NCBI GenBank assembly: GCA_031276035.1
Contig: JAISNV010000001.1
Location: 140,062 to 204,061, forward strand
Origin: Bacteroidales bacterium
GTDB lineage: Bacteria > Bacteroidota > Bacteroidia > Bacteroidales > BM520
DNA: 64,000 nucleotides
Direction of reading: 5' to 3'
Within the stretch, counting starts at the first letter, position 1; each line of letters starts with the position of its first letter. Positions 6,967-51,485 of this stretch are shown here, piece by piece. The position numbers and the translations under genes were made by a program. The notes under the pieces were generated by a model. The model saw nothing but the letters and a program-made list of their open reading frames with translations, had not been told where the DNA came from and ran no database searches.

Positions 6967-6978
6967 GTGTTTACTCAT

Positions 6979-7108: not shown

Positions 7109-7116
7109 CAAAGATA
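7109..7116 (-). promoter_or_regulatory. Bacteroidota -7 box TATCTTTG for the tRNA-tuf operon
   Basis: Plus-strand CAAAGATA is TAnnTTTG on the minus strand. It lies about 55 nt upstream of the first tRNA. Confidence 0.55.
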
Positions 7117-7162
7117 TAGCATTTTTTTTAATTGTGCAATTTTTTTAGAAAAAATTTTATTT

Positions 7163-7465
7163 TTATTTTCCCGTTACTTTTTCTTTACGTTTAACTAATT
7201 GTCTCCTAATAGCTTCTATACAACCGTCTATCGCTTCTTCAAATGTATCACATTGCTTTTTAGCAAAAATATCCTCACCCGGAACTAAAAACTTGACTTC
7301 CGAGACCTTATTTTCTATCTTTTCTTTGGCATCTAATTTTAAAATTACTTCAGCTCCTAGTACTCGATCATACAAATTCGCCAACTTAGAAACTTTTTTC
7401 TCAATAAATTCTTCTAATTTTACGTCTGCTTTAAATCCAACAGCATTAATGTTAATCGTAATCAT
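7163..7465 (-). CDS. hpf: Ribosome hibernation-promoting factor / RaiA family (sigma-54 modulation protein family)
   Basis: 100 aa. 'MITININAVGFKADVKLEEFIEKKVSKL...' is a typical short HPF/YfiA. Its place between the xerC-like gene and the tRNA-tuf cluster is conserved in Bacteroidota. Confidence 0.85.
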   Translation of the reverse strand: MITININAVGFKADVKLEEFIEKKVSKLANLYDRVLGAEVILKLDAKEKIENKVSEVKFLVPGEDIFAKKQCDTFEEAIDGCIEAIRRQLVKRKEKVTGK

Positions 7466-7515
7466 AATTTTAATTTTTTGGTTATACCTTTTATATATTA
7501 TTAGAATTATAGATA

Positions 7516-8427: not shown

Positions 8428-8538
8428 ATAAAAATTATTCCGGTAAATTTTCGATAAAGATAATCAAAAATCTACCGGAATCCAAATTTTTTACGCTTAG
8501 TCTTTAATAAAAATTATAAATAATATAATTTTTATTAA

Positions 8539-8736
8539 TTAAGCATTTTCTTGCATAGTTCTCAGATGCTGAACATAAGTTGCTTTGATTTTTTGCTCAC
8601 GTTTTACAACGGATGGTTTTGTGAATTTTTGACGACTTCTCAATTCTTTCACAACTCCCATTTTTTCAAACTTTCTTTTCAGCTTCTTTAAGGCTTTGTC
8701 AATGCTTTCGCCTTCTTTTACTGGAACTATAATCAT
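8539..8736 (-). CDS. rpsU: 30S ribosomal protein S21
   Basis: A 65-aa basic ORF. 'VKEGESIDKALKKLKRKFEKMGVVKELRSRQKFTKPS' is typical of S21. Confidence 0.93.
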   Translation of the reverse strand: MIIVPVKEGESIDKALKKLKRKFEKMGVVKELRSRQKFTKPSVVKREQKIKATYVQHLRTMQENA

Positions 8737-8784
8737 AATTAATACCTCTTTCGTTTTAAATTATTAATACTTAAAATTGGGATG

Positions 8785-8792
8785 CAAAGATA
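8785..8792 (-). promoter_or_regulatory. -7 box TATCTTTG upstream of rpsU
   Basis: Plus-strand CAAAGATA, 49 nt upstream of the rpsU ATG. Confidence 0.55.
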
Positions 8793-8942
8793 TAAATATT
8801 TTTTGAATCAGATGGTTTTTAGAAAAATATTTTTGTATTCAACGACTTTGTTTCAAAAGTTCAAAGACATTACATAGAACAAAATTTATTTTTCATAAAC
8901 TTATCGTTGAAATAATATCGCATCTAAAATTTTATTTACTTT

Positions 8943-11132: not shown

Positions 11133-11168
11133 ATAATATTTATTTAAAATTTATCTGATCTTTTTTAG

Positions 11169-11200
11169 AAAAAAAAAGCCGCAACAATAATGTTGCGGCT
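11169..11200 (-). terminator. Rho-independent terminator after the OmpA-family gene
   Basis: A perfect 10-bp stem, agccgcaaca (11177-11186) with tgttgcggct (11191-11200), and a 4-nt loop. The plus-strand A-run 11169-11177 reads as a T-tract on the minus-strand transcript. Confidence 0.8.
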
Positions 11201-11219
11201 TTAACTTTTTATTTATAAA

Positions 11220-37655: not shown

Positions 37656-38906
37656 TTAATTCAGAATCAGCACATCATTATCTCCATAATTATCGTATCC
37701 CGAAATAATTACCTTTTCACCGGGTTCAAGCCCTTCCAAAACCTCATAATAATTCGGGTTTTGCCTTCCGATTCTGATATTGCGTTTTGTTGCCTTAGTG
37801 CCTTCGGAATTGATTACGTAAATCCATGCGCCGCCGGTTTTGTGATAGAAATTACCACGGGGTATAATTAAAGCTTCTGTAGGCAATCCTAATTCAAGAT
37901 TTATGTAATATGTTTGTCCCGTACGAATGTTTTCAGGACGTTCGCCCGTAAATTGAAAATCTGTTCTGAACTGTCCGCCGCGAACATCAGGATAAACTTT
38001 GCTGACAACAACGGGATATTTCACGGATTGTCTTTCAAAGCTTCCGTTTAATCCGAAACGCACTCTATCAATATAATGTTCATCTATCATTGCTTCTATC
38101 TTATAATCGGAAAGATCATTAATTTGACCGATATTTGCGCCGGAATGCAAAGACTGTCCGAGAACAACTTCAAGATTTCCAAGTTGTCCGTTGATAGGAG
38201 ATTTCACATTGAGATTATCTTCCCTCTGGCGAATTAAAATCATGCTGCGGCGCATGCTTTCCAAGCTCTCTTCCATATTTTCAATCTGGATTGTTCTGTA
38301 AATTGAATCTTGTTTTTGTCGAGCCAAAACCAAATCGCGACTACTCATAGAAAATTCATAATCTTCCTTAGCCTGTAAATAATCTTCCAGAGAAATCAGT
38401 TTTTCATCATACAGTTTTTCATACTGTTTATTTTTCCTCTCTTTTCTTTCAACATCAAGATTAAGTTGTAAACGATTTTGCTCAAGGTCTAATTTCTGTT
38501 TTTCCATTTCGACAATTGTATTCCGAAGAAAATTTTCTTTCTCAGCCAAAGATGCCTCACTTTCGAGAATCGACAGAGCAAGTTGCGGATTACTTAAATG
38601 AAGAATAACATCGCCTTTTTTTACCATCCCGCCTTCTTCAATAACAATTTCATCGACCATTCCGCCTTCGAGCGGACTAAGTTGTAAAGTTGTAATAGGT
38701 TGAACCTGCCCATTTACACGAACATAATCATTAAACAACCCTTTTTCCACAGTACCTGTTAAAATCATTCTTCCGTCAACTTTCAATTTCGATTGATGAT
38801 CGCCGAAAATCAGCCAAGAAACAAAAGCTATAACAAATACACCTCCTAAAATATAGGGAATATGTTTTCTCTTAATACCTTTTTTCTTTTCAATTACTCT
38901 ATCCAT
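37656..38906 (-). CDS. Periplasmic adaptor (HlyD/MacA family)
   Basis: 416 aa with an N-terminal TM, a lipoyl-like 'VKKGDVILHL', a long coiled coil and beta-barrel C-terminal domains. Confidence 0.82.
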   Translation of the reverse strand: MDRVIEKKKGIKRKHIPYILGGVFVIAFVSWLIFGDHQSKLKVDGRMILTGTVEKGLFNDYVRVNGQVQPITTLQLSPLEGGMVDEIVIEEGGMVKKGDVILHLSNPQLALSILESEASLAEKENFLRNTIVEMEKQKLDLEQNRLQLNLDVERKERKNKQYEKLYDEKLISLEDYLQAKEDYEFSMSSRDLVLARQKQDSIYRTIQIENMEESLESMRRSMILIRQREDNLNVKSPINGQLGNLEVVLGQSLHSGANIGQINDLSDYKIEAMIDEHYIDRVRFGLNGSFERQSVKYPVVVSKVYPDVRGGQFRTDFQFTGERPENIRTGQTYYINLELGLPTEALIIPRGNFYHKTGGAWIYVINSEGTKATKRNIRIGRQNPNYYEVLEGLEPGEKVIISGYDNYGDNDVLILN

Positions 38907-38921: not shown

Positions 38922-40253
38922 TTATTCTTGATCAATATAATGTTCGCCTTTATAATATTTTACAATTCTACTTTTTATCATATACTGTAAATGAGAATTC
39001 AACATTTGTGCTTTTGCCGCAAGTAGTTGATTAGAGCTGCTATGCAATTCCAAAATACTTAACAAACCTTCTTCGTATTTTCTTGTATTTAATTTATGTG
39101 CGAGGTCTTGCGCTTCCACTTGTTTTTTGGATTGATAAAATTCCTTAACGGCGCCGTTGAGATCTTGAATCGCTTTCAATACTTCAGTTTCAACCTCATT
39201 AATTTGATCCATATATTCATATTGCGATATTGCAACAAGATTCTTATTTCGCGAAACATCTCCCTGTAGAGACAATGCGCTGAAAATAGGAATACTAACT
39301 CCAACGTAAACATATTGACCTTGACGATTGACCAATTGTTCCCAGAATTTTGTATTTCCCTCGGCACCAATATAATTAACGTAGCCTGTACTGTATCCGC
39401 CTTCTAAACTGATACGAGGAAGAAGTCGCCATTTTGCCGTATTCAATTGATATTGTGCAATTTTTACACTTTGTTCACCTTTTCTTAAACTCGGCAAAAA
39501 AGCTTTTGCCGACGAAATCAAAGATTCCGGAGAAGATGTACTGAAATAAACCTCATCATTATTCAATATTACAGTATCTGTAATTAAATTTTCATCCTTA
39601 GGAAAAAACATAATACCTTTTAAAACTAAAATTGCTTGTTCCAGATTATTTTCTTGATGGATAAGATTGAGATCGTTGGTTGCTACAATTGCTTCGGCTT
39701 GCAAAACGTCGGACTGTCCGCTGAGACCCAATTCCTCACGAAGTTTAATACTTTTAAGATTATTTTCGCTCTCCTGAAGTTGTTCTTTGGCAAGATTCAA
39801 CATTCCGGCATAATAGAGAACATTATAATAAGCTTGCATTGTTTGCAAGCATATATCATCTTGCAAAAGCTTTGCATCTTCGGTGCCCATCAATCGGGAA
39901 ATCTTAGCTATTTTATAATTGTTAACGGTTGAGAATCCGTTAAAAATAGTGTATGTTCCGTAAATTCCGTAAGAATTATTAAAAGAAGTCGTATTAGTAT
40001 AAGTATTAGTTTCAGGGTCAATGGAACGACCGAAATTTGAGGTGGCACTGGCCGAAGCGGAAATTGAAGGAATAAAATTAAGATAAGATTCCCTGAAATC
40101 TAAATCCGTATTTTTATTTTTTGCTTCTTGAATTTTATATTTCGGAGAGTTTTCTATTGCATATCTCATACAATCTTTCAAATTGTAGATCTTTTGTGCA
40201 AAAGAAAAATTTGTTACGATCAGTAGGGATAAAATCAATATTGTTTTTCGCAT
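38922..40253 (-). CDS. TolC-family outer-membrane efflux protein
   Basis: 443 aa with a signal peptide '...NFSFAQ' and two helical/barrel repeats. It is the first gene of a TolC-HlyD-FtsX operon with 15- and 42-nt gaps. Confidence 0.82.
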   Translation of the reverse strand: MRKTILILSLLIVTNFSFAQKIYNLKDCMRYAIENSPKYKIQEAKNKNTDLDFRESYLNFIPSISASASATSNFGRSIDPETNTYTNTTSFNNSYGIYGTYTIFNGFSTVNNYKIAKISRLMGTEDAKLLQDDICLQTMQAYYNVLYYAGMLNLAKEQLQESENNLKSIKLREELGLSGQSDVLQAEAIVATNDLNLIHQENNLEQAILVLKGIMFFPKDENLITDTVILNNDEVYFSTSSPESLISSAKAFLPSLRKGEQSVKIAQYQLNTAKWRLLPRISLEGGYSTGYVNYIGAEGNTKFWEQLVNRQGQYVYVGVSIPIFSALSLQGDVSRNKNLVAISQYEYMDQINEVETEVLKAIQDLNGAVKEFYQSKKQVEAQDLAHKLNTRKYEEGLLSILELHSSSNQLLAAKAQMLNSHLQYMIKSRIVKYYKGEHYIDQE

Positions 40254-40411: not shown

Positions 40412-42451
40412 TTAATTATAGATTAGCCATTCGGCATCACCTTGCAGGACTTTTTCAAAAGCTTTATTTCCTTTATCTGCTTTTTCTTCTAAATTTTCTG
40501 TCCACTTTTTATCTCTAAGTATCATTCTCATATTATATTTAGCATATGCATTATGTAGCTTTTGATCGTATTTACCGATTTTTATATAACTCGAATGCGG
40601 ATGAACAATATTGCTGATTGTTAATGAGGCAGGATACAAATCCTTGCCGTTTATGGAAAAGATAACCGTAGGCTGTTGCAAAAAGTAATAAATATTTGTA
40701 ATATACATTGATCCGAAAGCAGGCATATTTTTATTATTAATTTTTACGAGATTATTATCCTCCGAAGCAATTGATACCGAAAATTTCTTATAAGTAGAAC
40801 GGTAACCTATTATCATATTATCTGTTTTTATATTCCTAAAATCGGGAGTTAGTTCATTCCCTTTACATTTTATGAGGGCAATATAAGAGTCATAAGATTT
40901 TGAAGCTTGAGAATAATAGAAAATATTTACTGTATCTTCGGTTTCGTGAAATTTATTATAAAAATTTTTATAGTCATTATATTCATTTATTTTAATTCCA
41001 TAAATCTTTGTTAAAACGGCACGTATAGATGAATTTTTCTGCGCTGTTATACTCTTCCCGAAAATTGTCTTAATAAAATATAGATTCTGTGTACATACAA
41101 CATCATTCTCTTTCAAATTAGCGGCTTCTTTAAAGTCATTAAGAATTAACAACCGTTCTTGTGAAATGCTAACATCTTTAGCAATTACTTCATTTGTATA
41201 TTGTGTCAGCAAAGTAGAAATAAACAACAATATTGCAATAATGCAATTAATTACGACAAAAATAATTTTATTTTTACGTGACAGCAGAATTATAAGATAA
41301 AATAATGATGTAATAACAATTATTATAGCCAGAAAAGAGTAATACAAAGTAACATAATCCATACGAAGTGACAAATAAACTTTTTCGGAAAGAACCAATG
41401 GAATCTGTGGTAGTACAACTGCAATAGCACTTATCAGCAATAAAAACAACACTTTCTTTTTATTAGTGTTTTGAGGTAATAATTTTAAAATAAATAAATA
41501 AAGTAAAACAATAATAAAACTTTTTATATAAGCTAAGATACCTGCATTTTTCAGATAAAACATTAACGAATATTCTGTAGAAATACTATCTGAAAAAGGA
41601 ATAAAAATCAATTTATAATTGAAGAAAGAAGCTAAAGGGCTTGATTTTACAATAATATTCATTAACATTTGTAATGATTTTACGAATGAAATACCCTCGC
41701 TGAATCTATTTCCGACATATTTTGAAGGATATAAATTCAAATACCAAAAATACACTATAATGTAGGCAATACCAAAAAATACAAAAGGTCCTATTTCTTT
41801 CAAAAATTTTAATATATTTTCTTTTTTTAAAAAAGTTTTCGGCTTATATTTTGAAAGAATAATAATTAAAACCAGCACATAATACATCAATAAACTTTCT
41901 TGAAATAAACTCGCAATTGCCATTAAAACCGAAGAAATAATTATATAATAATATTTTCCTGTTTTATGATAGTTAAAAATAAGATGTATTGAACTTAATA
42001 CTAAGACAATAGCTACGGAAAAATAAAACGGATAACAAGTAACCGAAGATCCAGCTCCTCCAAATTGAAATAATGCACAAAATAATAATAATCCCAACAT
42101 AACCAAGAAATTATCATATCCGGCCCTTTTTATTAATGAAAAAAGTAAAATAATTCCAACAATTAAGGGAATCACTTTCATAGTATAATAGAACCAGGGG
42201 GCATTAATTAAATATGGAAGAAAATATATCCATCTGACTAATAAAAAGTAAAATCGTCCGGTAAATTTTGCATATCCTAAACCATCCGCAAACCACAAAT
42301 TTATGTCCGATTTTATAAAATTTTCTAAATCATCAGCAGCAATAAAACTCACTTTAAATAAAGGTAAGAAAGTTAGTACAACTACAATTAACAGCAAAAA
42401 ATCAAAAAGTATTTTTGTTGATTTTTTGTAAATATCTGTTTCTATTTTCAT
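40412..42451 (-). CDS. Polytopic membrane protein, putative GT-C-fold glycosyltransferase (ArnT/PMT-like), with a C-terminal soluble domain
   Basis: 679 aa with about 11-12 hydrophobic helices in the first ~415 aa. An acidic 'AADDLE' motif directly follows TM1, where GT-C enzymes carry their DD/DE motif. The non-membrane C-terminal domain is about 260 aa. Confidence 0.4.
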   Translation of the reverse strand: MKIETDIYKKSTKILFDFLLLIVVVLTFLPLFKVSFIAADDLENFIKSDINLWFADGLGYAKFTGRFYFLLVRWIYFLPYLINAPWFYYTMKVIPLIVGIILLFSLIKRAGYDNFLVMLGLLLFCALFQFGGAGSSVTCYPFYFSVAIVLVLSSIHLIFNYHKTGKYYYIIISSVLMAIASLFQESLLMYYVLVLIIILSKYKPKTFLKKENILKFLKEIGPFVFFGIAYIIVYFWYLNLYPSKYVGNRFSEGISFVKSLQMLMNIIVKSSPLASFFNYKLIFIPFSDSISTEYSLMFYLKNAGILAYIKSFIIVLLYLFILKLLPQNTNKKKVLFLLLISAIAVVLPQIPLVLSEKVYLSLRMDYVTLYYSFLAIIIVITSLFYLIILLSRKNKIIFVVINCIIAILLFISTLLTQYTNEVIAKDVSISQERLLILNDFKEAANLKENDVVCTQNLYFIKTIFGKSITAQKNSSIRAVLTKIYGIKINEYNDYKNFYNKFHETEDTVNIFYYSQASKSYDSYIALIKCKGNELTPDFRNIKTDNMIIGYRSTYKKFSVSIASEDNNLVKINNKNMPAFGSMYITNIYYFLQQPTVIFSINGKDLYPASLTISNIVHPHSSYIKIGKYDQKLHNAYAKYNMRMILRDKKWTENLEEKADKGNKAFEKVLQGDAEWLIYN

Positions 42452-42545: not shown

Positions 42546-43907
42546 ATGCAAAAAGGTTCTATACTGGTTGTTGATGACAACAAAGCAATTCTTTCGGCGC
42601 TCGATTTACTTTTGCCCGAATATTTTAAAGAGATTAAAATGCTTTCGAATCCCAATACAATTATCTCTACAATTAAATCGACTTTGTTTGATGTTGTACT
42701 TCTCGATATGAATTTCTCAGCAGGGGTGAATAGCGGCAACGAAGGTTTGTACTGGCTATCCGAAATAAAGAGACATTCTCCGCTCTCGGAAGTTGTTCTT
42801 TTTACTGCTTATGCCGATATTGACCTCGCGGTAAACGGTATCAAACGAGGTGCTTTCGATTTTGTTGTAAAACCTTGGGAAAATGCAAAACTGGTTTCTA
42901 CCCTATTTGCGGCTTACGAACTCTCAAAATCAAAAAAAGAAGTTAAACAACTCAAGGAAATCAAAAAAGAGTTCAGGGCAGATAGTGAAATGTATTGGGG
43001 AAATTCTTCCCAAATGCAAAAAATTCTTTCTCTTGTAGAAAGAATCGCAAAAACTGATGCCAATATTCTTATCACCGGCGAAAACGGCACCGGAAAAGAC
43101 GTGTTGGCAAATGAAATACATAAAAAATCATTCCGGAATAATGAAAGTATGGTTACTGTTGACATAGGAGCGCTGACAGATTCTCTTTTCGAAAGTGAAC
43201 TCTTCGGTCATGTAAAAGGTTCCTTTACTGATGCTAAAACCGATAGAGCCGGAAAATTCGAAGTGGCTTCCGGCGGAACCTTATTTCTCAATGAAATAGG
43301 AAATATTCCATTGCATCTGCAAGCTAAACTTCTAACCGTAATTCAAAATAAATCAATAAGTAGAGTCGGCGGCAACACAGTAATTCCTGTCAATATCCGA
43401 TTGATAAGCGCAACTAATAAAGATCTCGACGAAATGGTCAGAAATAACGAATTTCGAGAAGATTTACTTTACAGAATCAATACTATCCATATTGCTCTTC
43501 CTCCTTTGAGACAACGAAGAGATGAAATTATTCCGCTCGCAGAATTATTCTTGAAAAAATACGCTTTAAAATACGGGAAAAACATCAACGGAATTACTGC
43601 TGATGCTCAGGAAAAGTTAAAAAATTATTCTTGGAATGGAAATATCAGAGAGCTGCAACATGCTGTTGAAAAAGCGGTTATCCTTTCAGACGGGGCAAAA
43701 TTAACTTCAAACGATTTTCTTCTTATCGAAAAAAGTGAAATTCCGTTCAGCGGCAAACTAAATTCAACACTCACTCTCGAAGATATGGAAAGGGAAATGA
43801 TATCACAAGCTTTAATTGACTACAACGGTAATGTGTCTATGATAGCTCAACAATTGGGAATTACCAGACAAACATTATATAACAAACTAAAAAAGTATCA
43901 ATTATGA
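42546..43907 (+). CDS. Sigma-54-dependent response regulator (NtrC/AtoC/ZraR family bEBP)
   Basis: 453 aa. The receiver is '[11 protein letters not shown]...DVVLLDMNF', Walker A is '[13 protein letters not shown]', the sigma-54 contact loop 'GSFTDA' is a GAFTGA variant, and the C-terminal Fis-type HTH is '[23 protein letters not shown]'. Confidence 0.92.
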
Positions 43908-44024: not shown

Positions 44025-45332
44025 ATGCGAAATAAATTAGTCATACTCTTAATATTCCTGTTGGTTTTCACCATCGGCTCAGTGTTGCTCTTTGTCTATG
44101 AAAAATATCCTTTTGCAATTATTTCTACCATAATAAGTTTAATTCTTCTTTTTACTACAATCAGACAATTTAGAAATTCTGTCGAAAAACTTAATTATTT
44201 ACTGAGTTCTATTGAGAACGACGATTTTGCTTTCAGATTTTCCGACAATATAGAAAGAAGTTTTAAGGAAGAATATTATTTCAGCTATACTTTGAACAGA
44301 CTAAAAGATATAATGGCAAATGAAAAGAAGTTGGCAAGAGAGCAGGAAAAATATTTTGAATTGATGCTCGATAATGTAATTACGGGAATTATAACCGTTT
44401 CGGAACGCGGCGATGTTGTTTTTTGTAATAACAAAATTTACGAAATGTTCAACCTTTCCGTTCTTACTCATATAGATCAACTTAATCGCGTAAGCGAAGA
44501 ATTGGCGAAGAAAATTTCGGAAATCACTCCCGATGAAAATCCCACAGTATCTTTTTACACAGAGAGCGGTGAAGTTTTTCTTTCTTTGAAATGCAATTAT
44601 GTTACTATCAGAGATAAAAAACTAAAAATTATTGTAATAAATGATATCGGACAAGAATTGGAAGAAAAAGAACTGGAATCTTGGACTCGTTTGATCCGTG
44701 TTCTCACACATGAAATAATGAACACTGTTACTCCGATTTCTTCTCTCAGCGAAACACTATCAAAACATTACGGAAGTACAAACGAAGAAATAAAACAAGG
44801 ACTTGATGTTATAAGCTCTACAAGTAAAGGACTTATTTCCTTTGTTGATTCGTATAGAAAACTTACACGAATTCCGGAACCGATTAAAAAAGTTGTTTCT
44901 GTAAAATCACTTCTAAATAAATTAATTACATTAAATCATGATGATATTGAAAATTTCAACATTAATATTTCGATAAACATGGATAATGAAGATGTTATGA
45001 TTTATGTTGATGAGAATCTGATTCTTCAAGTTTTAATCAATCTAATGAAAAATGCTGTTTCAGCTTTAAAAGAAATCAGTTATGAAAGATTTATCAATTT
45101 TAATGTTTTTGTTGATAATAATGAAGATGTTGTTATCGATATGATTAACAACGGAATGTCTATTAGCAAGGAATTACAGGAGCAAATCTTTATTCCTTTC
45201 TTTACAACGAAAAACACCGGTACCGGAATAGGATTGAGTATTTCTCGACAAATTATGAAGTTGCATAACGGTACTCTTAAACTCAAAATTTCCAATGAAA
45301 AAGAAACTGTTTTTACTTTAATCTTTAGATAA
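44025..45332 (+). CDS. Sensor histidine kinase with two N-terminal TM helices, a PAS-like domain, HisKA and HATPase_c
   Basis: 435 aa. The H-box is 'VLTHEIMNTVTPISSL', the N-box 'LINLMKNAVSA' and the G-boxes 'INNGMSIS' and 'GTGIGLSISRQIM'. Confidence 0.9.
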   Translation: MRNKLVILLIFLLVFTIGSVLLFVYEKYPFAIISTIISLILLFTTIRQFRNSVEKLNYLLSSIENDDFAFRFSDNIERSFKEEYYFSYTLNRLKDIMANEKKLAREQEKYFELMLDNVITGIITVSERGDVVFCNNKIYEMFNLSVLTHIDQLNRVSEELAKKISEITPDENPTVSFYTESGEVFLSLKCNYVTIRDKKLKIIVINDIGQELEEKELESWTRLIRVLTHEIMNTVTPISSLSETLSKHYGSTNEEIKQGLDVISSTSKGLISFVDSYRKLTRIPEPIKKVVSVKSLLNKLITLNHDDIENFNINISINMDNEDVMIYVDENLILQVLINLMKNAVSALKEISYERFINFNVFVDNNEDVVIDMINNGMSISKELQEQIFIPFFTTKNTGTGIGLSISRQIMKLHNGTLKLKISNEKETVFTLIFR

Positions 45333-45333: not shown

Positions 45334-48297
45334 ATGAATACTACAACACCAAAAGCCGACTTAATTTACGATATTCCCGATTCGGATTTCGATAACTTGA
45401 TGTTGCATCGAATTTACAATGTGCTTTTTATAGCCAGTGAATACGATGCCTTTGTACTTGAAAATGACGGGAGAATAGACGAACAGATTTTTAATGAATA
45501 TGTTAAGTTGAATCTGCGACATCCGCCACATTTTATTCATGCACCCAATGAGCTCAGTGCCAGAAAAATTCTGAAAAAAGTAAATATCGACTTGGTAATT
45601 ATTTTATATACGGCCGGAGAAAGTAATCCTGCCGCATTCGCTAAAGAAATCAAAGATAAATATAACGATTTACCGGTTGTTGCTCTAACTCCATTTCCGC
45701 AAGATATTATCAGCAAGCTGAAAAAGAAAGATATTTCTTATTTCGATTATGTTTTCAGCTGGCTCGGAAACGCCGATATAATGTTGGCAATAATTAAACT
45801 TATTGAAGATAAAATGAATTTAAAGCACGACGTGCTGAAAGTAGGTGTACAAGTTATTCTTCTTGTAGAAGATTCTATAAGATTTTATTCTTCATATCTG
45901 CCGAATATTTACAAAATCGTCTTTAAACAATCAACCGATTTTATGGCTGAAGGTTTGAATGATCATGAGAAAATGCTTCGTATGCGCGGACGACCGAAAA
46001 TTATTTTGGCGACTAATTATGAAGAAGCTGAACAGTACTTTGAAAAATACAAGGATAACATGCTCGGTGTAATAACTGATGTTAGATATGAAAAAGATGG
46101 TGTTGAAGACGATCAGGCCGGAGTGAAATTGATAAAAGCAATTAGAAATGAAGATAAATTCATGTCTATTCTCATGCAATCTTCCGAAGGAAAAAATGCG
46201 GAAAAAGCAAAAGAATTACATGTCGGATTTATCAACAAAAACTCTAAAACAATTTCGAGAGAGCTGAAAAATTTTATGCAAAAGTATTTCGCCTTCGGCG
46301 ATTTTATCTTTGTTAACCCTAAAACGGGTGAGGAAATCGGAAGTGCATCGAATATTAAAACCTTAATGGAAATGATGCAAACCATTCCCGATGACAGTTT
46401 GAGATATCATATCAACAATAATCACTTTACCAAATGGTTGATGGCCCGCGCTTGTTTTCCGGTTGCACGACTGTTTAAAGAGCTTTCCGAAAAAGATTTC
46501 AAAGATTTGGATCACGTTCGAGATTTTATGTTTGATGTACTTGCCAAATACAGGATAAATAAATCTCACGGAGTAATAGCCGAGTTTACAAGCGAACGCT
46601 TTGATGGTTATTTCAGCTTTGCAAGAATCGGCCACGGTTCAATCGGCGGAAAAGCAAGAGGTTTGGCTTTCCTCGACCAACTGTTGCAAAGGCATAAAGA
46701 ATTTTCCGAATTCGGCGAAATCAATATTGCCATTCCCAGAACTTTAGTCATTTGTACAGATATTTTTGACGAGTTTATGGAAAGTAATTCTCTATATCCG
46801 ATTGCTTTGTCGAATGTAGAAGATGAAGATATTTTAAATGCTTTCGTCAATGCCAAACTACCTTCCAGAATCAAAGACGACCTAAGGGCATTTTTAAAAA
46901 TCATCAAAAAGCCTTTGGCAATACGTTCTTCTTCAGTTCTTGAAGATTCATATTATCAACCTTTTGCGGGGATTTACTCTACTTACATGATTCCCTATAC
47001 GGACGATCATAACTTTATGTTAAAAATATTATCAATAGCTATCAAAAGCGTTTATGCATCGGCTTTTTATAAGGATTCCAAAGCATATACAACAGCTACA
47101 TCAAATATGATTGACGAGGAGAAAATGGCTATAGTTCTTCAGGAAGTCTGCGGCGAGCAACATGGAGACATTTATTTCCCGACAATCTCAGGTGTTGCAC
47201 GCTCAATTAACTATTATCCTATCGGAAATGAAAAATTTGAAGACGGAATTGCCTCTATAGCTTTCGGACTTGGAACGTATATTGTACAAGGTAGCAGGTC
47301 ATTAAGATTCTCGCCCAGACATCCGCATAATATTTTGCAACTTTCAACCAATGAAATGAGTTTACGCGACACTCAAAAAACTTTCTTCGCTCTTGACACC
47401 AATCCTAATAGTTTCAAAATCTCAACCGACGAAGGAATTAACATTAAACATTGTAATATTAACTACGCTGCCGAACTTAATGCCACAACAAATGTAATTT
47501 CTTATTACGATTATGATAATGCGAATATAATCAGCATGATGCCGGACGGCCATAATTTCAGAAGAGTAGTAACTTTCGCTAATGTCCTGAAATATGATGT
47601 TTTTCCTTTGGCACAGATTTTGGATCTGATTCTGACTACCGGACAACAAGAAATGAACAAGCCTGTTGAGATCGAATTTGCCGTTGATTTTTCTTCCGGA
47701 TTAACGAATACAACTTTCTATATTCTGCAAATTCGCCCGATTGTAGACAACAATACCTTTCTGGATGAAGATATAATGCAAATTCCGGAAAATAAAACAA
47801 TTCTTACAAGTAAACAAGCTTTGGGACAAGGTGTAATTCCGAAAATAAAGCATATTGTTTATGTAAAGCCGCAGAGTTTTAATCCGGCAAAATCACATGA
47901 GATTGCAAGAATGATAGACAAAATTAACTCCGAATTTATCAAAGAAGATACTTATTATGTTTTAATTGGTCCCGGCAGATGGGGCTCAAGCGACCCATGG
48001 CTCGGAATTCCAACCAAATGGACAAATATTTCCAATGCGAAACTGATTGTAGAATCAAGTTTAAGTAATTATAGGATAGAGCCAAGCCAAGGCACTCATT
48101 TCTTCCAGAATCTCACATCTTTAGGAGTCGGATATTTCACAATTAATCCGTATATAAATGACGGTTATTTTAATTTGGAATTTTTAGATAAGCAGCAGGC
48201 AATTTTCGAAAACGAATACATAAGAATAGTAAAATTCGATAAAGAATTAACAATAAAGATCGACGGTCGAAAAACATACGGCATTGTGATGATGTGA
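45334..48297 (+). CDS. Receiver-domain protein fused to a PPDK/PEP-synthase-type ATP-grasp (PEP/pyruvate-binding) domain; function unknown
   Basis: 987 aa. Residues ~25-130 form a degenerate receiver-like domain. Residues ~170-300 form a receiver with 'ILLVEDS', 'GVITDVRY' and 'ILMQSS'. The PPDK_N motifs are 'GGKARGLAFL', 'IRSSSVLEDSYYQPFAGIYSTY', 'MAIVLQEV', 'SGVARSINYYP' and 'FGLGTYIVQG'. I see no 'GGxTSHAA'-type swivel motif. The start lies 1 nt after the kinase stop codon. Confidence 0.7.
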   Translation: MNTTTPKADLIYDIPDSDFDNLMLHRIYNVLFIASEYDAFVLENDGRIDEQIFNEYVKLNLRHPPHFIHAPNELSARKILKKVNIDLVIILYTAGESNPAAFAKEIKDKYNDLPVVALTPFPQDIISKLKKKDISYFDYVFSWLGNADIMLAIIKLIEDKMNLKHDVLKVGVQVILLVEDSIRFYSSYLPNIYKIVFKQSTDFMAEGLNDHEKMLRMRGRPKIILATNYEEAEQYFEKYKDNMLGVITDVRYEKDGVEDDQAGVKLIKAIRNEDKFMSILMQSSEGKNAEKAKELHVGFINKNSKTISRELKNFMQKYFAFGDFIFVNPKTGEEIGSASNIKTLMEMMQTIPDDSLRYHINNNHFTKWLMARACFPVARLFKELSEKDFKDLDHVRDFMFDVLAKYRINKSHGVIAEFTSERFDGYFSFARIGHGSIGGKARGLAFLDQLLQRHKEFSEFGEINIAIPRTLVICTDIFDEFMESNSLYPIALSNVEDEDILNAFVNAKLPSRIKDDLRAFLKIIKKPLAIRSSSVLEDSYYQPFAGIYSTYMIPYTDDHNFMLKILSIAIKSVYASAFYKDSKAYTTATSNMIDEEKMAIVLQEVCGEQHGDIYFPTISGVARSINYYPIGNEKFEDGIASIAFGLGTYIVQGSRSLRFSPRHPHNILQLSTNEMSLRDTQKTFFALDTNPNSFKISTDEGINIKHCNINYAAELNATTNVISYYDYDNANIISMMPDGHNFRRVVTFANVLKYDVFPLAQILDLILTTGQQEMNKPVEIEFAVDFSSGLTNTTFYILQIRPIVDNNTFLDEDIMQIPENKTILTSKQALGQGVIPKIKHIVYVKPQSFNPAKSHEIARMIDKINSEFIKEDTYYVLIGPGRWGSSDPWLGIPTKWTNISNAKLIVESSLSNYRIEPSQGTHFFQNLTSLGVGYFTINPYINDGYFNLEFLDKQQAIFENEYIRIVKFDKELTIKIDGRKTYGIVMM

Positions 48298-48415: not shown

Positions 48416-49228
48416 ATGACATCATTGAATCTCCTTAATTATTTTCTTGACAATTACAATCTTTTTTTAATTATTATGGCAGCCTTAGCGGTTGTTGTTT
48501 TTATTGTTCTTAACTTTATTGAAGTTGGTTACGGTATTACTATAAATAAAAAGTGGGGTGCCGCAATAAATAATAAAATCGGATGGCTGTGCATGGAAGT
48601 TCCGGTTTTTGTTTTAATGACAGTATTGTGTTTATTATCACCTAGAATAATTCCATTTAAAATATCCACATCATTAGTTCCGCTGATTTTTTTCTTATTC
48701 TTTCAGATACATTACATTAGAAGATCATTAATATTTCCGTTTTTGTTAAAAGGTAAAAGTAAAATGCCAGTAACTGTAATGTTGATGGGATTTTTATTTA
48801 ACATTTGCAATGCTTTGATGCAAGGCGGATGGTTTTTTTATAAATCGCCGGTAGATATGTACACTCTAAGTTGGTTGCTTACTCCACAATTTATTATCGG
48901 AACTATTATTTATTTCGGAGGAATGATTATTAACATCCAATCCGATAAAATTATCCAAGATTTACGTACGCCCGGAGATACAAAACATTACTTACCCACA
49001 AAAGGTTTATTTAAACATGTAACCGGAGCGCATTATTTCGGTGAAGTCATTGAATGGGTGGGTTTCGCAATATTAACTTGGTCGCCTGCAGGCGCTGTAT
49101 TTGCATTATGGACATTTGCAAATCTTGTTCCGCGCGCAAATGCTGTTTATCACAGCTATCAAAAAATGTTCGGTTACGACACCATCAAAGATAAAAAATT
49201 AAAAAGAATATTTCCTTATATATATTAG
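48416..49228 (+). CDS. 3-oxo-5-alpha-steroid 4-dehydrogenase (SRD5A) family membrane reductase
   Basis: 270 aa with about 6-7 TM helices. The C-terminal 'PTKGLFKHVTGAHYFGEVIEWVGFAILTWSPAGAVFALWTFANLVPRANAVYHSYQKMF...LKRIFPYIY' aligns by eye with the mammalian SRD5A1/2 C-terminal pattern 'GGLF.YV..AN(Y/F).GEI.EW.G.A..(S/T)WS...FA......RA...H..Y...F..YP..RK..IPF(I/L)F'. Confidence 0.75.
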   Translation: MTSLNLLNYFLDNYNLFLIIMAALAVVVFIVLNFIEVGYGITINKKWGAAINNKIGWLCMEVPVFVLMTVLCLLSPRIIPFKISTSLVPLIFFLFFQIHYIRRSLIFPFLLKGKSKMPVTVMLMGFLFNICNALMQGGWFFYKSPVDMYTLSWLLTPQFIIGTIIYFGGMIINIQSDKIIQDLRTPGDTKHYLPTKGLFKHVTGAHYFGEVIEWVGFAILTWSPAGAVFALWTFANLVPRANAVYHSYQKMFGYDTIKDKKLKRIFPYIY

Positions 49229-49463
49229 TATATTAGTTTGAAAATTATAAAGGTATAAAGATTATCTAATCTTTAAAATTTAAATTGATTTTCTTGTAAA
49301 ACATCATTATACTACAATTAAATATAAATCGTTTCGGATATTTTTATATTCTATCTATTTGATTTACCGGTTACATTTCATGGAGAAAGGGCAATTTCTA
49401 TTTGCATGATTATAAATCAATTCTATCAATCTAATTGATTTTATACATTTCTAATGCTTTTTG

Positions 49464-49471
49464 TATATTTG
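49464..49471 (+). promoter_or_regulatory. -7 box TATATTTG for the OYE-SDR pair
   Basis: An exact TAnnTTTG match, 18 nt upstream of ATG 49489. Confidence 0.55.
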
Positions 49472-49488
49472 CAGATAAATTTTTTATT

Positions 49489-50718
49489 ATGTCCGAATCT
49501 TTATTATTTACACCGGCAAAACTTGGCCCCTTAACTCTTAGAAATCGTACTATCAGAGCTGCTGCTTTCGAAGGCATGTGCCCTAATAACAATCCGAGCC
49601 AACAATTACACGATTATCATGTTTCTGTTGCGGCAGGAGGTATCGGAATGACTAACCTTGCATATTCATCGGTAACAAAAAACGGATTATCTTTTCCGCA
49701 TCAATTATGGTTAAGAAAAGAAATCATTTCGGATCTTAAGAAAATAACCGACGATATTCATAAAGAAGGTGCGGCGGCATCGGTACAAATTGGACACTGC
49801 GGAAATATGTCGAAAAGAAGTGTTGCCGGACAATTGCCGATATCCGCCTCATACGGATTTAATGTCTATTCTCCAACCTTTGTAAGGAAGATGAGAAAAG
49901 ATGAAATAACGGAAGTTGCAAAAGCTTTCGGAACAGCCGTAAATTTTGCACGCGATGCCGGATTTGACGCCGTGGAAGTTCATGCCGGTCATGGTTATTT
50001 ACTGAGTCAGTTTTTATCAAAATATACAAATCATCGTCATGATGAATATGGCGGAAGTTTAGAAAATCGAATGCGGTTTATGAGTATGGCAATAAATTAC
50101 GCTATGGAAGCCGCTAAAAATGATATGGCCGTTACTGTGAAAATGAATATGAACGACGGATTCAAATTTCTTGGCGGTATGCAAACCGACGATTGTATTT
50201 TGGTTGCCAAGAGGCTTGAGTCTTTGGGTGTTCACGGATTAGTTCTGAGCGGCGGATTCGTAAGTCATGCGCCTATGCACGTCATGTACGGAAGTATGCC
50301 TACAAAGACAATGTCGTATTACATGAGTCCTTCAATAATTAAACCACTTGCAAAATATTTTGGAAAGATTTTAGTTCCTACTGTTCCCTTTAAAGAAGCT
50401 TATTTCTATGAAGACGCTTTAAAATTCAGAGAAGCTGTTAAGTTGCCTTTAATTTATGTAGGAGGATTAGTTGCAAGGGATAAGATTGATATGGTTTTAA
50501 ATTCAGGATTTGAATTTATTGCCATGGCAAGAGCCCTTGTAAACGAACCCGGATTTGTTAACCGGATGAAAGAAGAAGGTAATATCAGATGTAATTGCGA
50601 ACATGTAAATTATTGCATCGGAAGAATGTATTCTAAAGATATGGTTTGTCATCAACACGTTAAAGAAGAATTACCTAAATGTATAAAAAAGGAAATAGAA
50701 AAGGCAAAACGGCATTAG
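49489..50718 (+). CDS. Old Yellow Enzyme family NADH:flavin oxidoreductase (FadH/BaiH-type TIM barrel) with a C-terminal Cys cluster and no FAD/NAD(P) domain
   Basis: The start is taken at ATG 49489 ('MSESLLFTPAKLGPLTLRNRTIRAA'). The core motif is 'EVHAGHGYLLSQFLSKYTNHRHDEYGGSLENRMRF'. The Cys cluster 'CNCEHVNYCIGRMYSKDMVC' lies about 20 aa from the C-terminus. Confidence 0.85.
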   Translation: MSESLLFTPAKLGPLTLRNRTIRAAAFEGMCPNNNPSQQLHDYHVSVAAGGIGMTNLAYSSVTKNGLSFPHQLWLRKEIISDLKKITDDIHKEGAAASVQIGHCGNMSKRSVAGQLPISASYGFNVYSPTFVRKMRKDEITEVAKAFGTAVNFARDAGFDAVEVHAGHGYLLSQFLSKYTNHRHDEYGGSLENRMRFMSMAINYAMEAAKNDMAVTVKMNMNDGFKFLGGMQTDDCILVAKRLESLGVHGLVLSGGFVSHAPMHVMYGSMPTKTMSYYMSPSIIKPLAKYFGKILVPTVPFKEAYFYEDALKFREAVKLPLIYVGGLVARDKIDMVLNSGFEFIAMARALVNEPGFVNRMKEEGNIRCNCEHVNYCIGRMYSKDMVCHQHVKEELPKCIKKEIEKAKRH

Positions 50719-51485
50719 TAACTGGAGCGGCTTCCGGAATCGGTTATGCTTTTGCTGAGAAGCTGGCGCAAGACGGATATGACTTACTGATTTCTGATCT
50801 TCAAGAAGAAAAAACAATTGAAGTTGCTGATAATCTACATAATAATTATGCAATTGATGTAAAATATCTTATATTAGATTTATCCAGAATTGATGCGGCT
50901 GAAATCATATATGAATTTTGTTGTAATAAGAACATTGAAATCTATATTTTAATTAGTAATGCCGGAAGATTTGCTTTTGATTCGATAACGGATATCGAAA
51001 CAGATAAATATGATTCGATCTTGCAATTACACATGAATACACCTGCAAAGTTATGCAGATTATTCGGCAAAGACATGAAAAAAAGAAGAAATGGTTATAT
51101 TCTAACCGTATCCTCATTATCCGCATGGATGCCCTATCCATATTTATCACTTTATTCTTCAACAAAAAGATTTCTCAGAACATTCTCAAGGTCAATACAC
51201 TTCGAGTTCTCAAATTATAATGTAGGAGTTACAACAATTTGTCCAGGGGCAATAGATACGGACCTTTACAATTTAAAACCACATTTGCGGAAAATCGCAC
51301 GAAATCTCGGTATAATGATGAAGCCGGAAATTTTAGCAGAAAGATCATTAAAAAAAATGCAAAGAAAACGTGTAACTTATATTCCTGGTCTGATAAACAA
51401 AATTGCCATACCTATTTTATTAATAATTCCTGTTAGGATTATTACTTTCTTTACACGAAAAATAGCAGGAGATAAGTTTAATTAA
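50679..51485 (+). CDS. Short-chain dehydrogenase/reductase (classical SDR) with a C-terminal hydrophobic anchor
   Basis: 268 aa with 'TALVTGAASGIGYA' (TGxxxGxG), 'ISNAG', the catalytic 'S...YSSTK', and the C-terminal 'IAIPILLIIPVRIITFF'. Its start overlaps the OYE gene by 40 nt in another frame. Confidence 0.85.
   Translation: MYKKGNRKGKTALVTGAASGIGYAFAEKLAQDGYDLLISDLQEEKTIEVADNLHNNYAIDVKYLILDLSRIDAAEIIYEFCCNKNIEIYILISNAGRFAFDSITDIETDKYDSILQLHMNTPAKLCRLFGKDMKKRRNGYILTVSSLSAWMPYPYLSLYSSTKRFLRTFSRSIHFEFSNYNVGVTTICPGAIDTDLYNLKPHLRKIARNLGIMMKPEILAERSLKKMQRKRVTYIPGLINKIAIPILLIIPVRIITFFTRKIAGDKFN

What the first reader, a model, noticed from the sequence alone, without database searches (positions are those of the whole stretch)
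45334..48297. Response-regulator receiver fused to a stand-alone PPDK-type ATP-grasp domain with no phosphohistidine swivel or PEP-utiliser barrel
Seen in sequence: the 987-aa protein has four parts. (i) A receiver-like domain whose phospho-acceptor position is not Asp ('DLVIILYT'). (ii) A second receiver with the acidic pocket and acceptor intact ('LLVEDS', 'VITDVRY', 'LMQSS', 'INK'). (iii) All hallmark strands of the PPDK/PEP-synthase nucleotide-binding ATP-grasp ('GGKARGLAFL', 'IRSSSVLEDS..FAG', 'VLQEV', 'GLGTYIVQG'). (iv) A ~250-aa C-terminal domain ('LIGPGRWGSSDPWLGIP', 'SQGTHFFQN') that does not carry the 'GGxTSHAA' swivel signature. Inference: this looks like a phosphorylation-controlled ATP-dependent enzyme whose substrate is unknown. 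To my knowledge no member of this architecture has an assigned function. It is translationally coupled to a histidine kinase, since its ATG lies 1 nt after the kinase stop codon.
Basis: partly seen in the sequence, partly recalled or inferred. Interest (0 to 1): 0.7.

Follow-up and report, generated by a model that had tools for sequence, protein, structure and literature searches.

The report
Response regulator with orphan ATP-grasp enzyme
This gene encodes a two-component signalling protein whose output is a PEP-synthase-type ATP-binding enzyme module of unknown reaction; it belongs to a very large uncharacterised Bacteroidales family that often sits next to the glutamate dehydrogenase gene, which gives a testable lead to how these bacteria control nitrogen assimilation.

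Summary
ORF 45334-48297 (+) encodes 987 aa with four parts:
- an aspartate-less receiver;
- an intact receiver (E179, D180, D249, S284, K302);
- a complete PPDK_N ATP-grasp (436-816, E 6.5e-40) whose catalytic residues are invariant;
- a roughly 170-aa C-terminal domain.

Pfam, PDB sequence searches, profile-profile comparison with true swivel domains and Foldseek all failed to find a swivel His domain, a PEP/pyruvate barrel, or any known fold for the C-terminal domain. The gene starts 1 nt after a histidine kinase stop codon, and this pairing is kept in the 84% relative.

It is not new as an architecture. More than 8000 homologues exist. They are named "PEP/pyruvate-binding domain protein" or, wrongly, "PEP synthase". 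Two response-regulator censuses mention REC-PPDK fusions. I found no functional study.

New here:
- The C-terminal domain always follows PPDK_N and carries an active-site-like signature (GRWG[ST]xD and SxG[TS]HFFxN). R882, S918 and H922 are invariant in 132 diverse sequences.
- In 24 of 71 related loci, glutamate dehydrogenase directly flanks the gene, in at least two orientations. A KorAB-type 2-oxoacid oxidoreductase also recurs.

Best reading: a phosphorylation-switched ATP-dependent phosphotransferase acting at the 2-oxoglutarate/glutamate node. The reaction and the target are inferred, not shown.

The parts
45334..48297 (+). Whole gene: 987-aa response regulator with a PPDK-type ATP-grasp output (NCBI MDR2083516.1)
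45409..45843 (+). Residues ~26-170: aspartate-less (pseudo) receiver. The end of beta3 reads LVIIL-YT, so there is no Asp; T119 is kept and the conserved Lys is absent.
   Evidence: AF2 secondary structure; alignment A1; Foldseek PleD-like tandem REC
45850..46248 (+). Residues ~173-305: intact receiver with E179-D180 acidic pocket, D249 acceptor at the end of beta3, S284 at the end of beta4, F299 and K302 after beta5
   Evidence: Pfam Response_reg is sub-threshold
46285..46638 (+). Residues ~318-435: linker domain with faint similarity to the N-terminal half of DUF5752 (E 0.003 here; 27.6 bits, above cutoff, in a paralogue)
46639..47781 (+). Residues 436-816: PPDK_N ATP-grasp nucleotide-binding domain with K440, R531, E537/D538, Q603/E604, E779, E781, Q799 and R801 invariant
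   Evidence: Pfam E 6.5e-40; invariant columns; R531 aligns with PpsA R127; Foldseek top hit is rifampin phosphotransferase 5hv3, E 5.9e-12
47782..48294 (+). Residues 817-987: family-specific alpha/beta C-terminal domain with no Pfam, PDB or fold match. Signature G879-x-G-R882-W-G-[ST]-x-D887...L-G-I-P893, E907, S918-x-G-[TS]-H922-F-F-x-N926.
44025..45332 (+). Co-transcribed histidine kinase (two N-terminal TM helices, PAS, HisKA, HATPase_c). Its stop codon lies 1 nt before the regulator's ATG, so it is the probable cognate kinase.
   Evidence: the same pairing occurs in the 84% relative L086
42546..43907 (+). Sigma-54-dependent response regulator (REC-AAA+-HTH_8), first gene of the same-strand cluster. 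It is probably a second output of the same kinase (inferred).

Best explanation
This is a two-component response regulator with an enzymatic output. The membrane-anchored PAS histidine kinase encoded 1 nt upstream phosphorylates D249 of the second receiver. The first, aspartate-less receiver acts as an adaptor or dimerisation partner, as in PleD-type tandem receivers. This switch controls a 550-aa catalytic core made of a PPDK/PEP-synthase-type ATP-grasp plus a family-specific C-terminal domain. The core binds Mg-ATP and transfers phosphoryl groups. Because it lacks both the canonical swivel His domain and the PEP/pyruvate barrel, it is neither a PEP synthase nor a PPDK. Its invariant R882, S/T885, D887, E907, S918, H922 and N926 cluster is the likely second half of the active site, with H922 a candidate phosphoryl carrier or catalytic base. 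Across the family the gene is tied to glutamate dehydrogenase and to a KorAB-type 2-oxoacid:ferredoxin oxidoreductase. The target is therefore most likely at the 2-oxoglutarate/glutamate (nitrogen assimilation) node, for example ATP-dependent covalent control of GDH. Shown: the domain anatomy, residue conservation, absence of the swivel and barrel, kinase coupling and gdh linkage. Inferred: catalysis, the role of H922, the identity of the target and the direction of regulation.
For: - Domain anatomy and motifs.
- Receiver residues and ATP-grasp ligands are invariant in 65 homologues. R531 aligns with PpsA R127.
- The best structural match of the core is rifampin phosphotransferase, and the N-terminus matches PleD.
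- The C-terminal domain occurs in 2052 clusters (50% identity) and lies C-terminal to PPDK_N in all eight varied-length representatives scanned. These include REC-less 580-aa proteins and a tandem duplicate, so ATP-grasp plus C-terminal domain is the functional unit.
- R882, G884, S918, G920 and H922 are 100% conserved in 132 sequences that are only 32-55% identical to this one.
- The stop and start codons are separated by 1 nt, and the kinase is kept upstream in the 84% relative.
- GDH directly flanks the gene or its tandem pair in 24 of 71 loci that have genes on both sides. It occurs in two orientations (17 divergent, 9 co-directional downstream) while other neighbours vary, and the link is spread over several clades.
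- GDH and 2-oxoacid oxidoreductase identities score above the NCBIfam cutoffs.
Against: - There is no biochemical evidence of any kind.
- In this window there is no gdh or kor gene near the gene, and the window protein is a long separate branch. The gdh link may therefore not apply to this copy.
- Part of the kor adjacency may be inherited synteny after the bamA-skp-skp-murI block.
- Every characterised PPDK_N enzyme uses a swivel His domain, and the C-terminal domain shows no detectable homology or fold similarity to it. The proposed carrier role of H922 rests only on its invariance.
- Pfam Response_reg is below its gathering threshold.
Confidence: 0.55

Rival explanations
1. It is an ATP-grasp ligase. 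Like most ATP-grasp enzymes it would form an acyl-phosphate from a carboxylate (for example glutamate or 2-oxoglutarate) and couple it to an amine or thiol, rather than act as a phosphotransferase. The C-terminal domain would bind the second substrate.
For: This is the general chemistry of the ATP-grasp superfamily (established knowledge). There is no swivel domain to accept phosphate. The genomic context is rich in glutamate and 2-oxoglutarate enzymes: GDH, KorAB-type oxidoreductase and glutamate racemase.
Against: The domain is specifically of the PPDK_N clade (E 6.5e-40). Its nearest relatives by NCBIfam and Foldseek are PEP-synthase-like enzymes, PigC/RedH and rifampin phosphotransferase. 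All of these are phosphotransferases that act through His~P. To my knowledge no ligase is known in this clade.
Confidence: 0.15
2. It is a non-catalytic nucleotide sensor or scaffold. The ATP-grasp only binds ATP/AMP, and the protein regulates partners (for example GDH) through phosphorylation-dependent protein-protein contacts.
For: Canonical downstream domains are absent. In most genomes the gene is an orphan regulator with no kinase nearby.
Against: Not only the binding residues but also the Mg and phosphate ligands of catalysis (K440, R531, E779/E781, Q799, R801) are invariant. The C-terminal domain has an active-site-like invariant polar cluster. Conservation of this kind is unusual for a pseudo-enzyme.
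Confidence: 0.1
3. It is a self-contained His-to-Asp relay. The ATP-grasp phosphorylates H922, which then passes the phosphate to the protein's own D249. This would be a non-GHKL histidine kinase fused to its receiver.
For: H922 is invariant next to a PPDK-type ATP-grasp, which normally phosphorylates a His. Most family members have no adjacent histidine kinase.
Against: This copy, and its 84% relative, are translationally coupled to a conventional histidine kinase. REC-less 580-aa versions of the core exist, so the core has a function independent of a receiver. No output domain would remain.
Confidence: 0.05
4. It is a genuine PEP synthase or pyruvate phosphate dikinase, as many homologues are annotated.
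For: Source names of homologues include 'phosphoenolpyruvate synthase'. There is a PPDK_N hit.
Against: Two of the three defining domains are absent. NCBIfam PEP-synthase models score 30-55 bits against cutoffs of 598-883.
Confidence: 0.02

Closest known systems
Rifampin phosphotransferase (RPH; PDB 5hv3/5fbs) and the PRK06241 / PigC / RedH 'PEP-synthase-like' phosphotransferases
   Same: PPDK_N-type ATP-grasp without the PEP/pyruvate TIM barrel. RPH is the best structural match (Foldseek E 5.9e-12) and these families give the best NCBIfam partial hits. A further domain follows the ATP-grasp.
   Different: Those enzymes end in a canonical swivel phosphohistidine domain (GG-x-T/M-T/S-H), which was tested here and not found. 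They have no receiver domains. Their substrates are small-molecule hydroxyls.
PEP synthase (PpsA) and pyruvate phosphate dikinase (PPDK)
   Same: Homologous ATP-grasp with the same motifs: GGK, RSS..ED..FAG, E-x-E and Q-x-R.
   Different: The swivel domain (PF00391) and the PEP/pyruvate barrel (PF02896) are absent, and two receiver domains are added. The NCBI name 'phosphoenolpyruvate synthase' on homologues is an over-annotation.
PleD-type tandem-receiver response regulators with enzymatic output
   Same: It has two consecutive receiver folds, only one of them phosphorylatable, in front of an enzyme domain. Foldseek E is 1e-5 to PleD.
   Different: The order is reversed, with the pseudo-receiver first. 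The output is an ATP-grasp and not a GGDEF cyclase.
REC-PPDK architecture listed in response-regulator censuses (Galperin et al. 2018, PMC5847659; ALR survey, PMC4395418)
   Same: [quoted passage not shown] Aspartate-less receivers are reported as enriched with PPDK effector domains.
   Different: The censuses only list the architecture. They do not note the missing swivel and barrel, the conserved C-terminal domain or the gdh linkage, and they give no function.
Desulfovibrio 'nitrate cluster' (Dde_0602-0605 / DVU0248-0245; PMC4001038)
   Same: A histidine kinase, a receiver protein and a PPDK_N-containing protein are encoded together, and mutants show nitrogen-related phenotypes (nitrate resistance). 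It is a split-gene analogue of kinase + receiver + ATP-grasp.
   Different: There the ATP-grasp protein keeps the PEP-utiliser mobile domain, the receiver is a separate protein, and a protein phosphatase is adjacent. Its biochemistry is also unknown.

Membership tests
CheY-like response regulator (receiver domain) | (beta-alpha)5 fold | tested here: met
   AF2 secondary-structure order for residues 173-305. Foldseek hits to PleD and to single REC domains with TMt 0.57-0.78.
CheY-like response regulator (receiver domain) | Acidic pocket, acceptor Asp at the end of beta3, Ser/Thr at the end of beta4, Lys after beta5 | tested here: met
   E179, D249, S284 and K302 are invariant and D180 is at least 90% conserved in 65 homologues. 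Their positions fit the model's strands.
CheY-like response regulator (receiver domain) | Pfam PF00072 above the gathering score | tested here: not met
   22.5 bits against a cutoff of 30.2. This is a divergent receiver with insertions. Many homologues do carry a precomputed PF00072 hit.
CheY-like response regulator (receiver domain) | Phosphotransfer from a cognate histidine kinase | not testable with these tools
   Only genetic coupling is available: a 1-nt gap to the kinase, conserved in L086.
Aspartate-less / pseudo-receiver | Receiver fold lacking the phospho-acceptor Asp | tested here: met
   Residues 26-170 have the beta-alpha order. The position at the end of beta3 is L/M, not D.
PEP synthase / PPDK (PEP-utilising dikinases) | PPDK_N ATP-grasp nucleotide-binding domain | tested here: met
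   PF01326 E 6.5e-40, covering profile positions 3-322 of 328.
PEP synthase / PPDK (PEP-utilising dikinases) | Swivel phosphohistidine domain (PF00391, GG-x-T-S-H) | tested here: not met
   No Pfam hit even at E 10 on 27 members. hhalign against 7 true swivels gives probability below 1%. Foldseek PDB gives no swivel hit.
PEP synthase / PPDK (PEP-utilising dikinases) | PEP/pyruvate-binding TIM barrel (PF02896) | tested here: not met
   No hit. Only 170 residues remain after the ATP-grasp.
PEP synthase / PPDK (PEP-utilising dikinases) | NCBIfam equivalog score | tested here: not met
   29-55 bits against cutoffs of 598-883.
Rifampin-phosphotransferase-like (ATP-grasp + substrate domain + swivel) | ATP-grasp of RPH type | tested here: met
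   It is the top Foldseek hit: 5hv3, E 5.9e-12, 422 aligned columns.
Rifampin-phosphotransferase-like (ATP-grasp + substrate domain + swivel) | C-terminal swivel His domain | tested here: not met
   NF041857 scores 15.6 bits against a cutoff of 999.
ATP-grasp superfamily (catalytically competent) | Conserved Lys/Arg phosphate ligands and the acidic/amide Mg2+ ligands | tested here: met
   K440, R531, E779, E781, Q799 and R801 are invariant. Motif equivalence to PpsA (GGK, VRSS, DIEW, VQARP) can be read, and R531 aligns.
ATP-grasp superfamily (catalytically competent) | ATP binding and turnover | not testable with these tools
   Needs purified protein.

The most novel reading that the evidence does not exclude
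The family is the missing post-translational controller of Bacteroidales ammonia assimilation. It would be a receiver-gated 'protein/metabolite dikinase' that uses a PPDK-type ATP-grasp together with a previously unrecognised phosphoryl-carrier domain (invariant SxG[TS]H922FF, a different fold from the classical swivel) to modify glutamate dehydrogenase or the 2-oxoglutarate supply in response to nitrogen status. This would explain old reports, recalled from memory and not verified here, of reversible in-vivo inactivation of Bacteroides GDH. It might also bear on the 'trans-acting gene(s)' affecting GDH activity that appear in the title of Baggio & Morrison 1996, as cited in PMC4539542, although those are said to lie downstream of gdhA whereas this gene lies on the 5' side in both arrangements seen.
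Probability: 0.15. Interest if true: 0.85.

Novelty: new variant of a known kind. Interest (0 to 1): 0.6.

Why it matters
Bacteroidales dominate the human gut, and how they sense nitrogen and regulate ammonia assimilation is poorly understood. As far as I know they lack the enterobacterial GlnE/GlnD machinery.

This is a very abundant response-regulator family: more than 8000 sequences, at least 569 species-level genomes, and members in cultured Bacteroides, Phocaeicola and Parabacteroides. It has an intact but unexplained ATP-grasp enzyme module and is repeatedly encoded next to gdhA. That makes it a concrete, genetically tractable candidate for this control.

Mechanistically it would be the first PPDK-type ATP-grasp shown to work without the canonical swivel His domain. 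Either it defines a new carrier domain or it extends the chemistry of this clade.

The analysis also flags a systematic mis-annotation in public databases, where homologues are named 'phosphoenolpyruvate synthase'.

Tried and rejected
1. Divergent swivel domain. By eye the C-terminal domain looked like a divergent swivel phosphohistidine domain:
- G-x-G...VYV hairpin;
- VLIGP..SDPW resembling VLVTDMTDPDW;
- AKLIVES...SQGTHFF..LGVGYFTI resembling [28 protein letters not shown];
- IKIDGRKxxGIV resembling V-x-V-DG-x-x-G-x-V;
- the same beta-beta-(helix insert)-beta-beta-helix-beta order in the AF2 model.
I tested this with hhalign against a profile of seven genuine swivels (E. coli and Neisseria PpsA, two archaeal-type PEP synthases, Geobacillus pyruvate kinase C-domain, Listeria RPH, E. 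coli EI). I used three increasingly diverse query profiles, and the probability was 0.3-0.9%. Foldseek against PDB gave a best E of 0.011, TM below 0.32 and no PPDK, EI or PK hit in the top 50. The idea is rejected as unsupported and survives only as speculation.

2. PDB sequence searches with C-terminal profiles gave only marginal hits, to DNMT1 (E 1.3) and to a longin domain (E 0.014). I judge these spurious.

3. Foldseek against the viral library found nothing.

4. A sigma-54 promoter scan of the window gave 4 one-mismatch hits against 1.8 expected, none in a relevant intergenic region. The sigma-70 and terminator scan was uninformative.

5. Literature. They found no functional study, nothing on DUF5752, and nothing retrievable on reversible GDH inactivation in Bacteroides. 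Baggio & Morrison 1996 is not held. My guess that B. thetaiotaomicron BT1971/BT1972 was the orthologue was wrong, because BT1971 is a catalase.

6. Kinase or sigma-54 regulator as a family-wide neighbour. Only weak, non-orthologous kinase hits were found, next to some Bacteroides copies. The idea is rejected.
Full report
OBSERVATION

The ORF at 45334-48297 (+) is real and encodes 987 aa. The upstream histidine kinase (44025-45332) ends in TAA at 45330-45332. One A follows, and then the ATG at 45334. The protein is identical to NCBI MDR2083516.1, named 'PEP/pyruvate-binding domain-containing protein' from a Bacteroidales MAG on a 492-kb contig. The window is 33% G+C.

DOMAIN ANATOMY

Pfam finds PPDK_N across almost the whole profile (residues 436-816, positions 3-322 of 328, E 6.5e-40). 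It also finds a sub-threshold Response_reg hit (213-305) and a faint DUF5752-like stretch (318-405). It finds no PEP-utilizers (swivel) or PEP-utilizers_C (barrel) domain. NCBIfam gives only partial, far-sub-threshold hits to PEP synthase, PigC, RedH and rifampin phosphotransferase models, and all of them fall within the ATP-grasp.

An AlphaFold2 model built on 65 homologues (mean pLDDT 78) shows two consecutive (beta-alpha)5 units, a mixed linker domain, the ATP-grasp and a C-terminal alpha/beta domain. Foldseek against PDB puts rifampin phosphotransferase first (5hv3, E 5.9e-12, 422 columns). PleD-type tandem-receiver regulators come next (E ~1e-5), followed by many single receiver domains.

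In the 65-sequence alignment the second receiver keeps E179, D249 (end of beta3), S284 (end of beta4), F299 and K302 invariant, with D180 at least 90% conserved. The first unit has L/M where the acceptor Asp should be, so it is an aspartate-less receiver.

The ATP-grasp ligands are K440 (GGK), R531 (IRSSS), E537/D538, Q603/E604, E779 and E781 (VEIEFAV), and Q799 and R801 (ILQIRP). Nearly all are invariant; E604 is at least 90% conserved. These motifs correspond to GGK, VRSS..AED..FAG, DIEW and VQARP of E. coli PpsA. R531 aligns with PpsA R127 in a direct profile alignment. The enzyme module therefore does not look degenerate.

IS THERE A HIDDEN SWIVEL DOMAIN?

By eye the last 170 residues can be laid over a swivel domain, and the secondary-structure order is compatible. 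No objective test supports this:
- Pfam found nothing, even at E = 10, on 27 members scanned one by one.
- PDB phmmer and hmmsearch with three profiles gave only marginal, unrelated hits.
- hhalign against a profile of seven genuine swivel domains, whose sequences came, gave 0.3-0.9% probability. This held even with a query profile of 132 sequences from 50%-identity clusters.
- A separate high-confidence model of residues 812-987 (pLDDT 87, pTM 0.87) has no significant Foldseek match in PDB (best E 0.011, TM below 0.32) or in BFVD.

I conclude that there is no canonical swivel domain and that the C-terminal domain is an orphan domain.

THE C-TERMINAL DOMAIN

A profile search of 1.84 billion representative proteins finds the domain in 2052 clusters at E below 1e-3. 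In all eight varied-length representatives that I scanned it lies directly C-terminal to a PPDK_N domain. The architectures seen are:
- the ~990-aa REC-REC form;
- REC-less proteins of about 580 aa;
- a 1639-aa protein with two PPDK_N + C-terminal modules;
- 1150-1290-aa paralogues with an extra N-terminal, sensor-like extension, which includes a PAS domain in one case.

ATP-grasp plus C-terminal domain is therefore one conserved functional unit to which various regulatory heads are attached.

In 132 sequences that are only 32-55% identical to this one, R882, G884, G891, P893, S918, G920 and H922 are 100% conserved. G831, G879, G881, W883, E907, F923, F924 and N926 exceed 98%. This gives the signature G-x-G-R-W-G-[ST]-x-D ... 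L-G-[IV]-P-V-x-W ... E ... S-x-G-[TS]-H-F-F-x-N. Both conserved loops are the low-confidence, presumably mobile, segments of the full-length model (884-890 and 917-920). This pattern is what an active site looks like, and not a mere scaffold.

FAMILY SIZE AND PRIOR KNOWLEDGE

The word-indexed search hit its 8000-candidate ceiling, with every candidate significant. The best 120 are 56-84% identical Bacteroidales proteins named 'PEP/pyruvate-binding domain-containing protein', 'phosphoenolpyruvate synthase' or 'CheY-like chemotaxis protein'. A scan of one genome per species returned at least 569 confirmed loci before reaching its limit. These include cultured Bacteroides timonensis, B. muris, B. 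bouchesdurhonensis, Phocaeicola coprophilus and Parabacteroides, as well as Paludibacter, Lentimicrobium, Rikenellaceae and others.

Two census papers already mention the fusion. [quoted passage not shown] The ALR survey reports that aspartate-less receivers are enriched with PPDK effector domains (PMC4395418). I found no paper that assigns a function. A split-gene analogue exists in Desulfovibrio: a kinase, a receiver protein, a PPDK_N + mobile-domain protein and a phosphatase form a cluster whose mutants gain nitrate resistance (PMC4001038).

GENOMIC CONTEXT

In the window the gene is the last of a same-strand trio:
- a sigma-54-dependent response regulator (42546-43907);
- a histidine kinase with two N-terminal TM helices and a PAS domain (44025-45332);
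- this gene.

This looks like a branched system with one transcriptional and one enzymatic output. The kinase-regulator pairing is retained in the only close relative (84% identity, L086). It is not a family trait. None of the 80 species loci has an orthologous kinase next to the gene.

I called ORFs in 83 loci and clustered the 1120 products. The most frequent neighbour is a 445-aa family-I glutamate dehydrogenase (NF010633, 831 bits, above its cutoff):
- It is the immediately adjacent gene in 26 of 83 loci. In 17 it is divergent upstream and in 9 it is directly downstream on the same strand, with gaps of 40-640 nt.
- It lies within three genes in 30 of 83 loci.
- It directly flanks the gene or its tandem pair in 24 of the 71 loci that have genes on both sides.
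- The remaining neighbours of those loci are mostly unrelated to one another.
- In a neighbour-joining tree the gdh-linked copies are spread over several clades of the ~990-aa form and over the long paralogue.

The second recurrent neighbour is a two-subunit 2-oxoacid:acceptor oxidoreductase of the KorAB type (TIGR03710, 649 bits, above its cutoff). It sits directly upstream on the same strand, for example as oxidoreductase alpha, beta, this gene, then gdh in L073. Part of that block follows the conserved bamA-skp-skp-murI cluster and may be inherited synteny.

Adjacency retained in two orientations across family-level divergence argues for a functional link with glutamate and 2-oxoglutarate metabolism. 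The caveat for this particular copy is that no gdh or kor gene lies within the 64-kb window, and the window protein sits on a long branch of its own.

MECHANISM

Shown:
- an intact receiver coupled to a kinase;
- a complete PPDK-type ATP-grasp with conserved ligands;
- an obligatorily associated orphan domain with an invariant Arg/Ser/His/Asn cluster;
- absence of the swivel and the barrel;
- family-level linkage to gdhA.

Inferred:
- Phosphorylation of D249 switches the enzyme, probably through receiver/pseudo-receiver-mediated dimerisation as in PleD.
- The ATP-grasp transfers phosphate.
- H922 in the C-terminal domain is the acceptor, carrier or catalytic base.
- The physiological target lies at the GDH/2-oxoglutarate node.

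All characterised PPDK_N enzymes that I know of (PPDK, PpsA, glucan water dikinase, rifampin phosphotransferase, PigC) pass the beta-phosphate of ATP to a histidine. An invariant His in the domain that always follows the ATP-grasp is therefore the obvious candidate, but the fold evidence says that this domain is not the classical carrier.

The rivals are an acyl-phosphate-forming ligase, a non-catalytic nucleotide sensor, a self-contained His-Asp relay and a true PEP synthase. They are listed with their tests. The PEP synthase reading is excluded by the domain tests.

From memory only: reversible in-vivo inactivation of Bacteroides fragilis GDH was described in the 1980s. [quoted passage not shown] That title is confirmed through a reference list, but the paper itself was not available. 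It places the gene(s) downstream of gdhA, whereas in both arrangements seen here this gene lies on the 5' side of gdh. I treat it only as a lead.

VERDICT

The finding is accurate, and its interpretation holds. It is not a rarity. It is one member of a huge, catalogued and mis-annotated family with no known function.

Relative to known systems it is a new variant: a response regulator whose output is a PPDK-clade ATP-grasp that has swapped the swivel and barrel for an orphan catalytic-looking domain. The gdh linkage turns 'substrate unknown' into a specific experiment that can be done in cultivable gut Bacteroidales.

Interest is 0.6. It is held down by the lack of any biochemical evidence and by the absence of gdh next to this particular copy.

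Noticed in passing
L002, L011, L020, L022, L025, L035, L038, L039, L043, L046, L054, L056, L063-L065, L067, L069-L071, L073, L076, L077, L081-L084 (gene next to the match at ~10001-12920): A family-I NADP-type glutamate dehydrogenase gene lies immediately next to the orthologue. It is either divergent upstream or directly downstream on the same strand. This holds in 26 of 83 loci, while most other neighbours differ.
   Followed up: yes
L021, L028, L029, L032, L034, L037, L061, L073, L078 (genes upstream of the match): A KorAB-type two-subunit 2-oxoacid:acceptor oxidoreductase (614 + 340 aa) sits directly upstream on the same strand, often preceded by glutamate racemase and skp genes. Part of this may be inherited synteny.
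   Followed up: partly
L002:4103-7966 and the upstream member of tandem pairs in L011, L021, L022, L025, L034, L036, L037, L051, L055, L057, L060, L061, L078, L079: Sixteen loci carry a second, longer paralogue (1150-1290 aa) immediately upstream in tandem. It has the same REC-REC-ATP-grasp-C-terminal layout plus a conserved N-terminal extension (motif RLKELAAINQTT...EGPFLKEER, duplicated in L025) that Pfam does not recognise. One copy also has a PAS domain.
   Followed up: partly
window 40412-42451 (-): A 679-aa ORF with no Pfam or NCBIfam hit is transcribed divergently from the sigma-54 regulator. It heads a same-strand run of TolC-like (38922-40253), HlyD-like (37656-38906) and MacB/FtsX-like (35244-37613) efflux genes, and is a possible target of the sigma-54 regulator.
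   Followed up: no
window 44025-45332 (+): The histidine kinase has two hydrophobic helices at residues ~5-24 and ~29-44 with almost no external loop, followed by a cytoplasmic PAS domain. It therefore probably senses a membrane or intracellular cue, not a periplasmic ligand.
   Followed up: partly
homologues P0016, P0017, P0024, P0030 and others: Many database entries of this family are named 'phosphoenolpyruvate synthase' although they lack the swivel and PEP/pyruvate domains. This is a propagating mis-annotation.
   Followed up: yes
L049, L066: Two contigs labelled Acutalibacteraceae (Firmicutes) carry copies 52-53% identical to the window protein that group with Bacteroides/Phocaeicola copies in the tree. 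These are probably mis-binned Bacteroidales contigs and not lateral transfer.
   Followed up: no
L033, L041, L044, L052 (gene at ~5900-9840, minus strand): In several Bacteroides species a ~1300-aa protein with weak histidine-kinase similarity, possibly a hybrid two-component system, lies divergently next to the orthologue instead of gdh.
   Followed up: no
window 48416-51485 (+): Directly downstream are a steroid 5-alpha-reductase-like membrane protein, an Old-Yellow-Enzyme-type flavin oxidoreductase and a short-chain dehydrogenase. Together they form a small reductase cluster unrelated to the finding.
   Followed up: no
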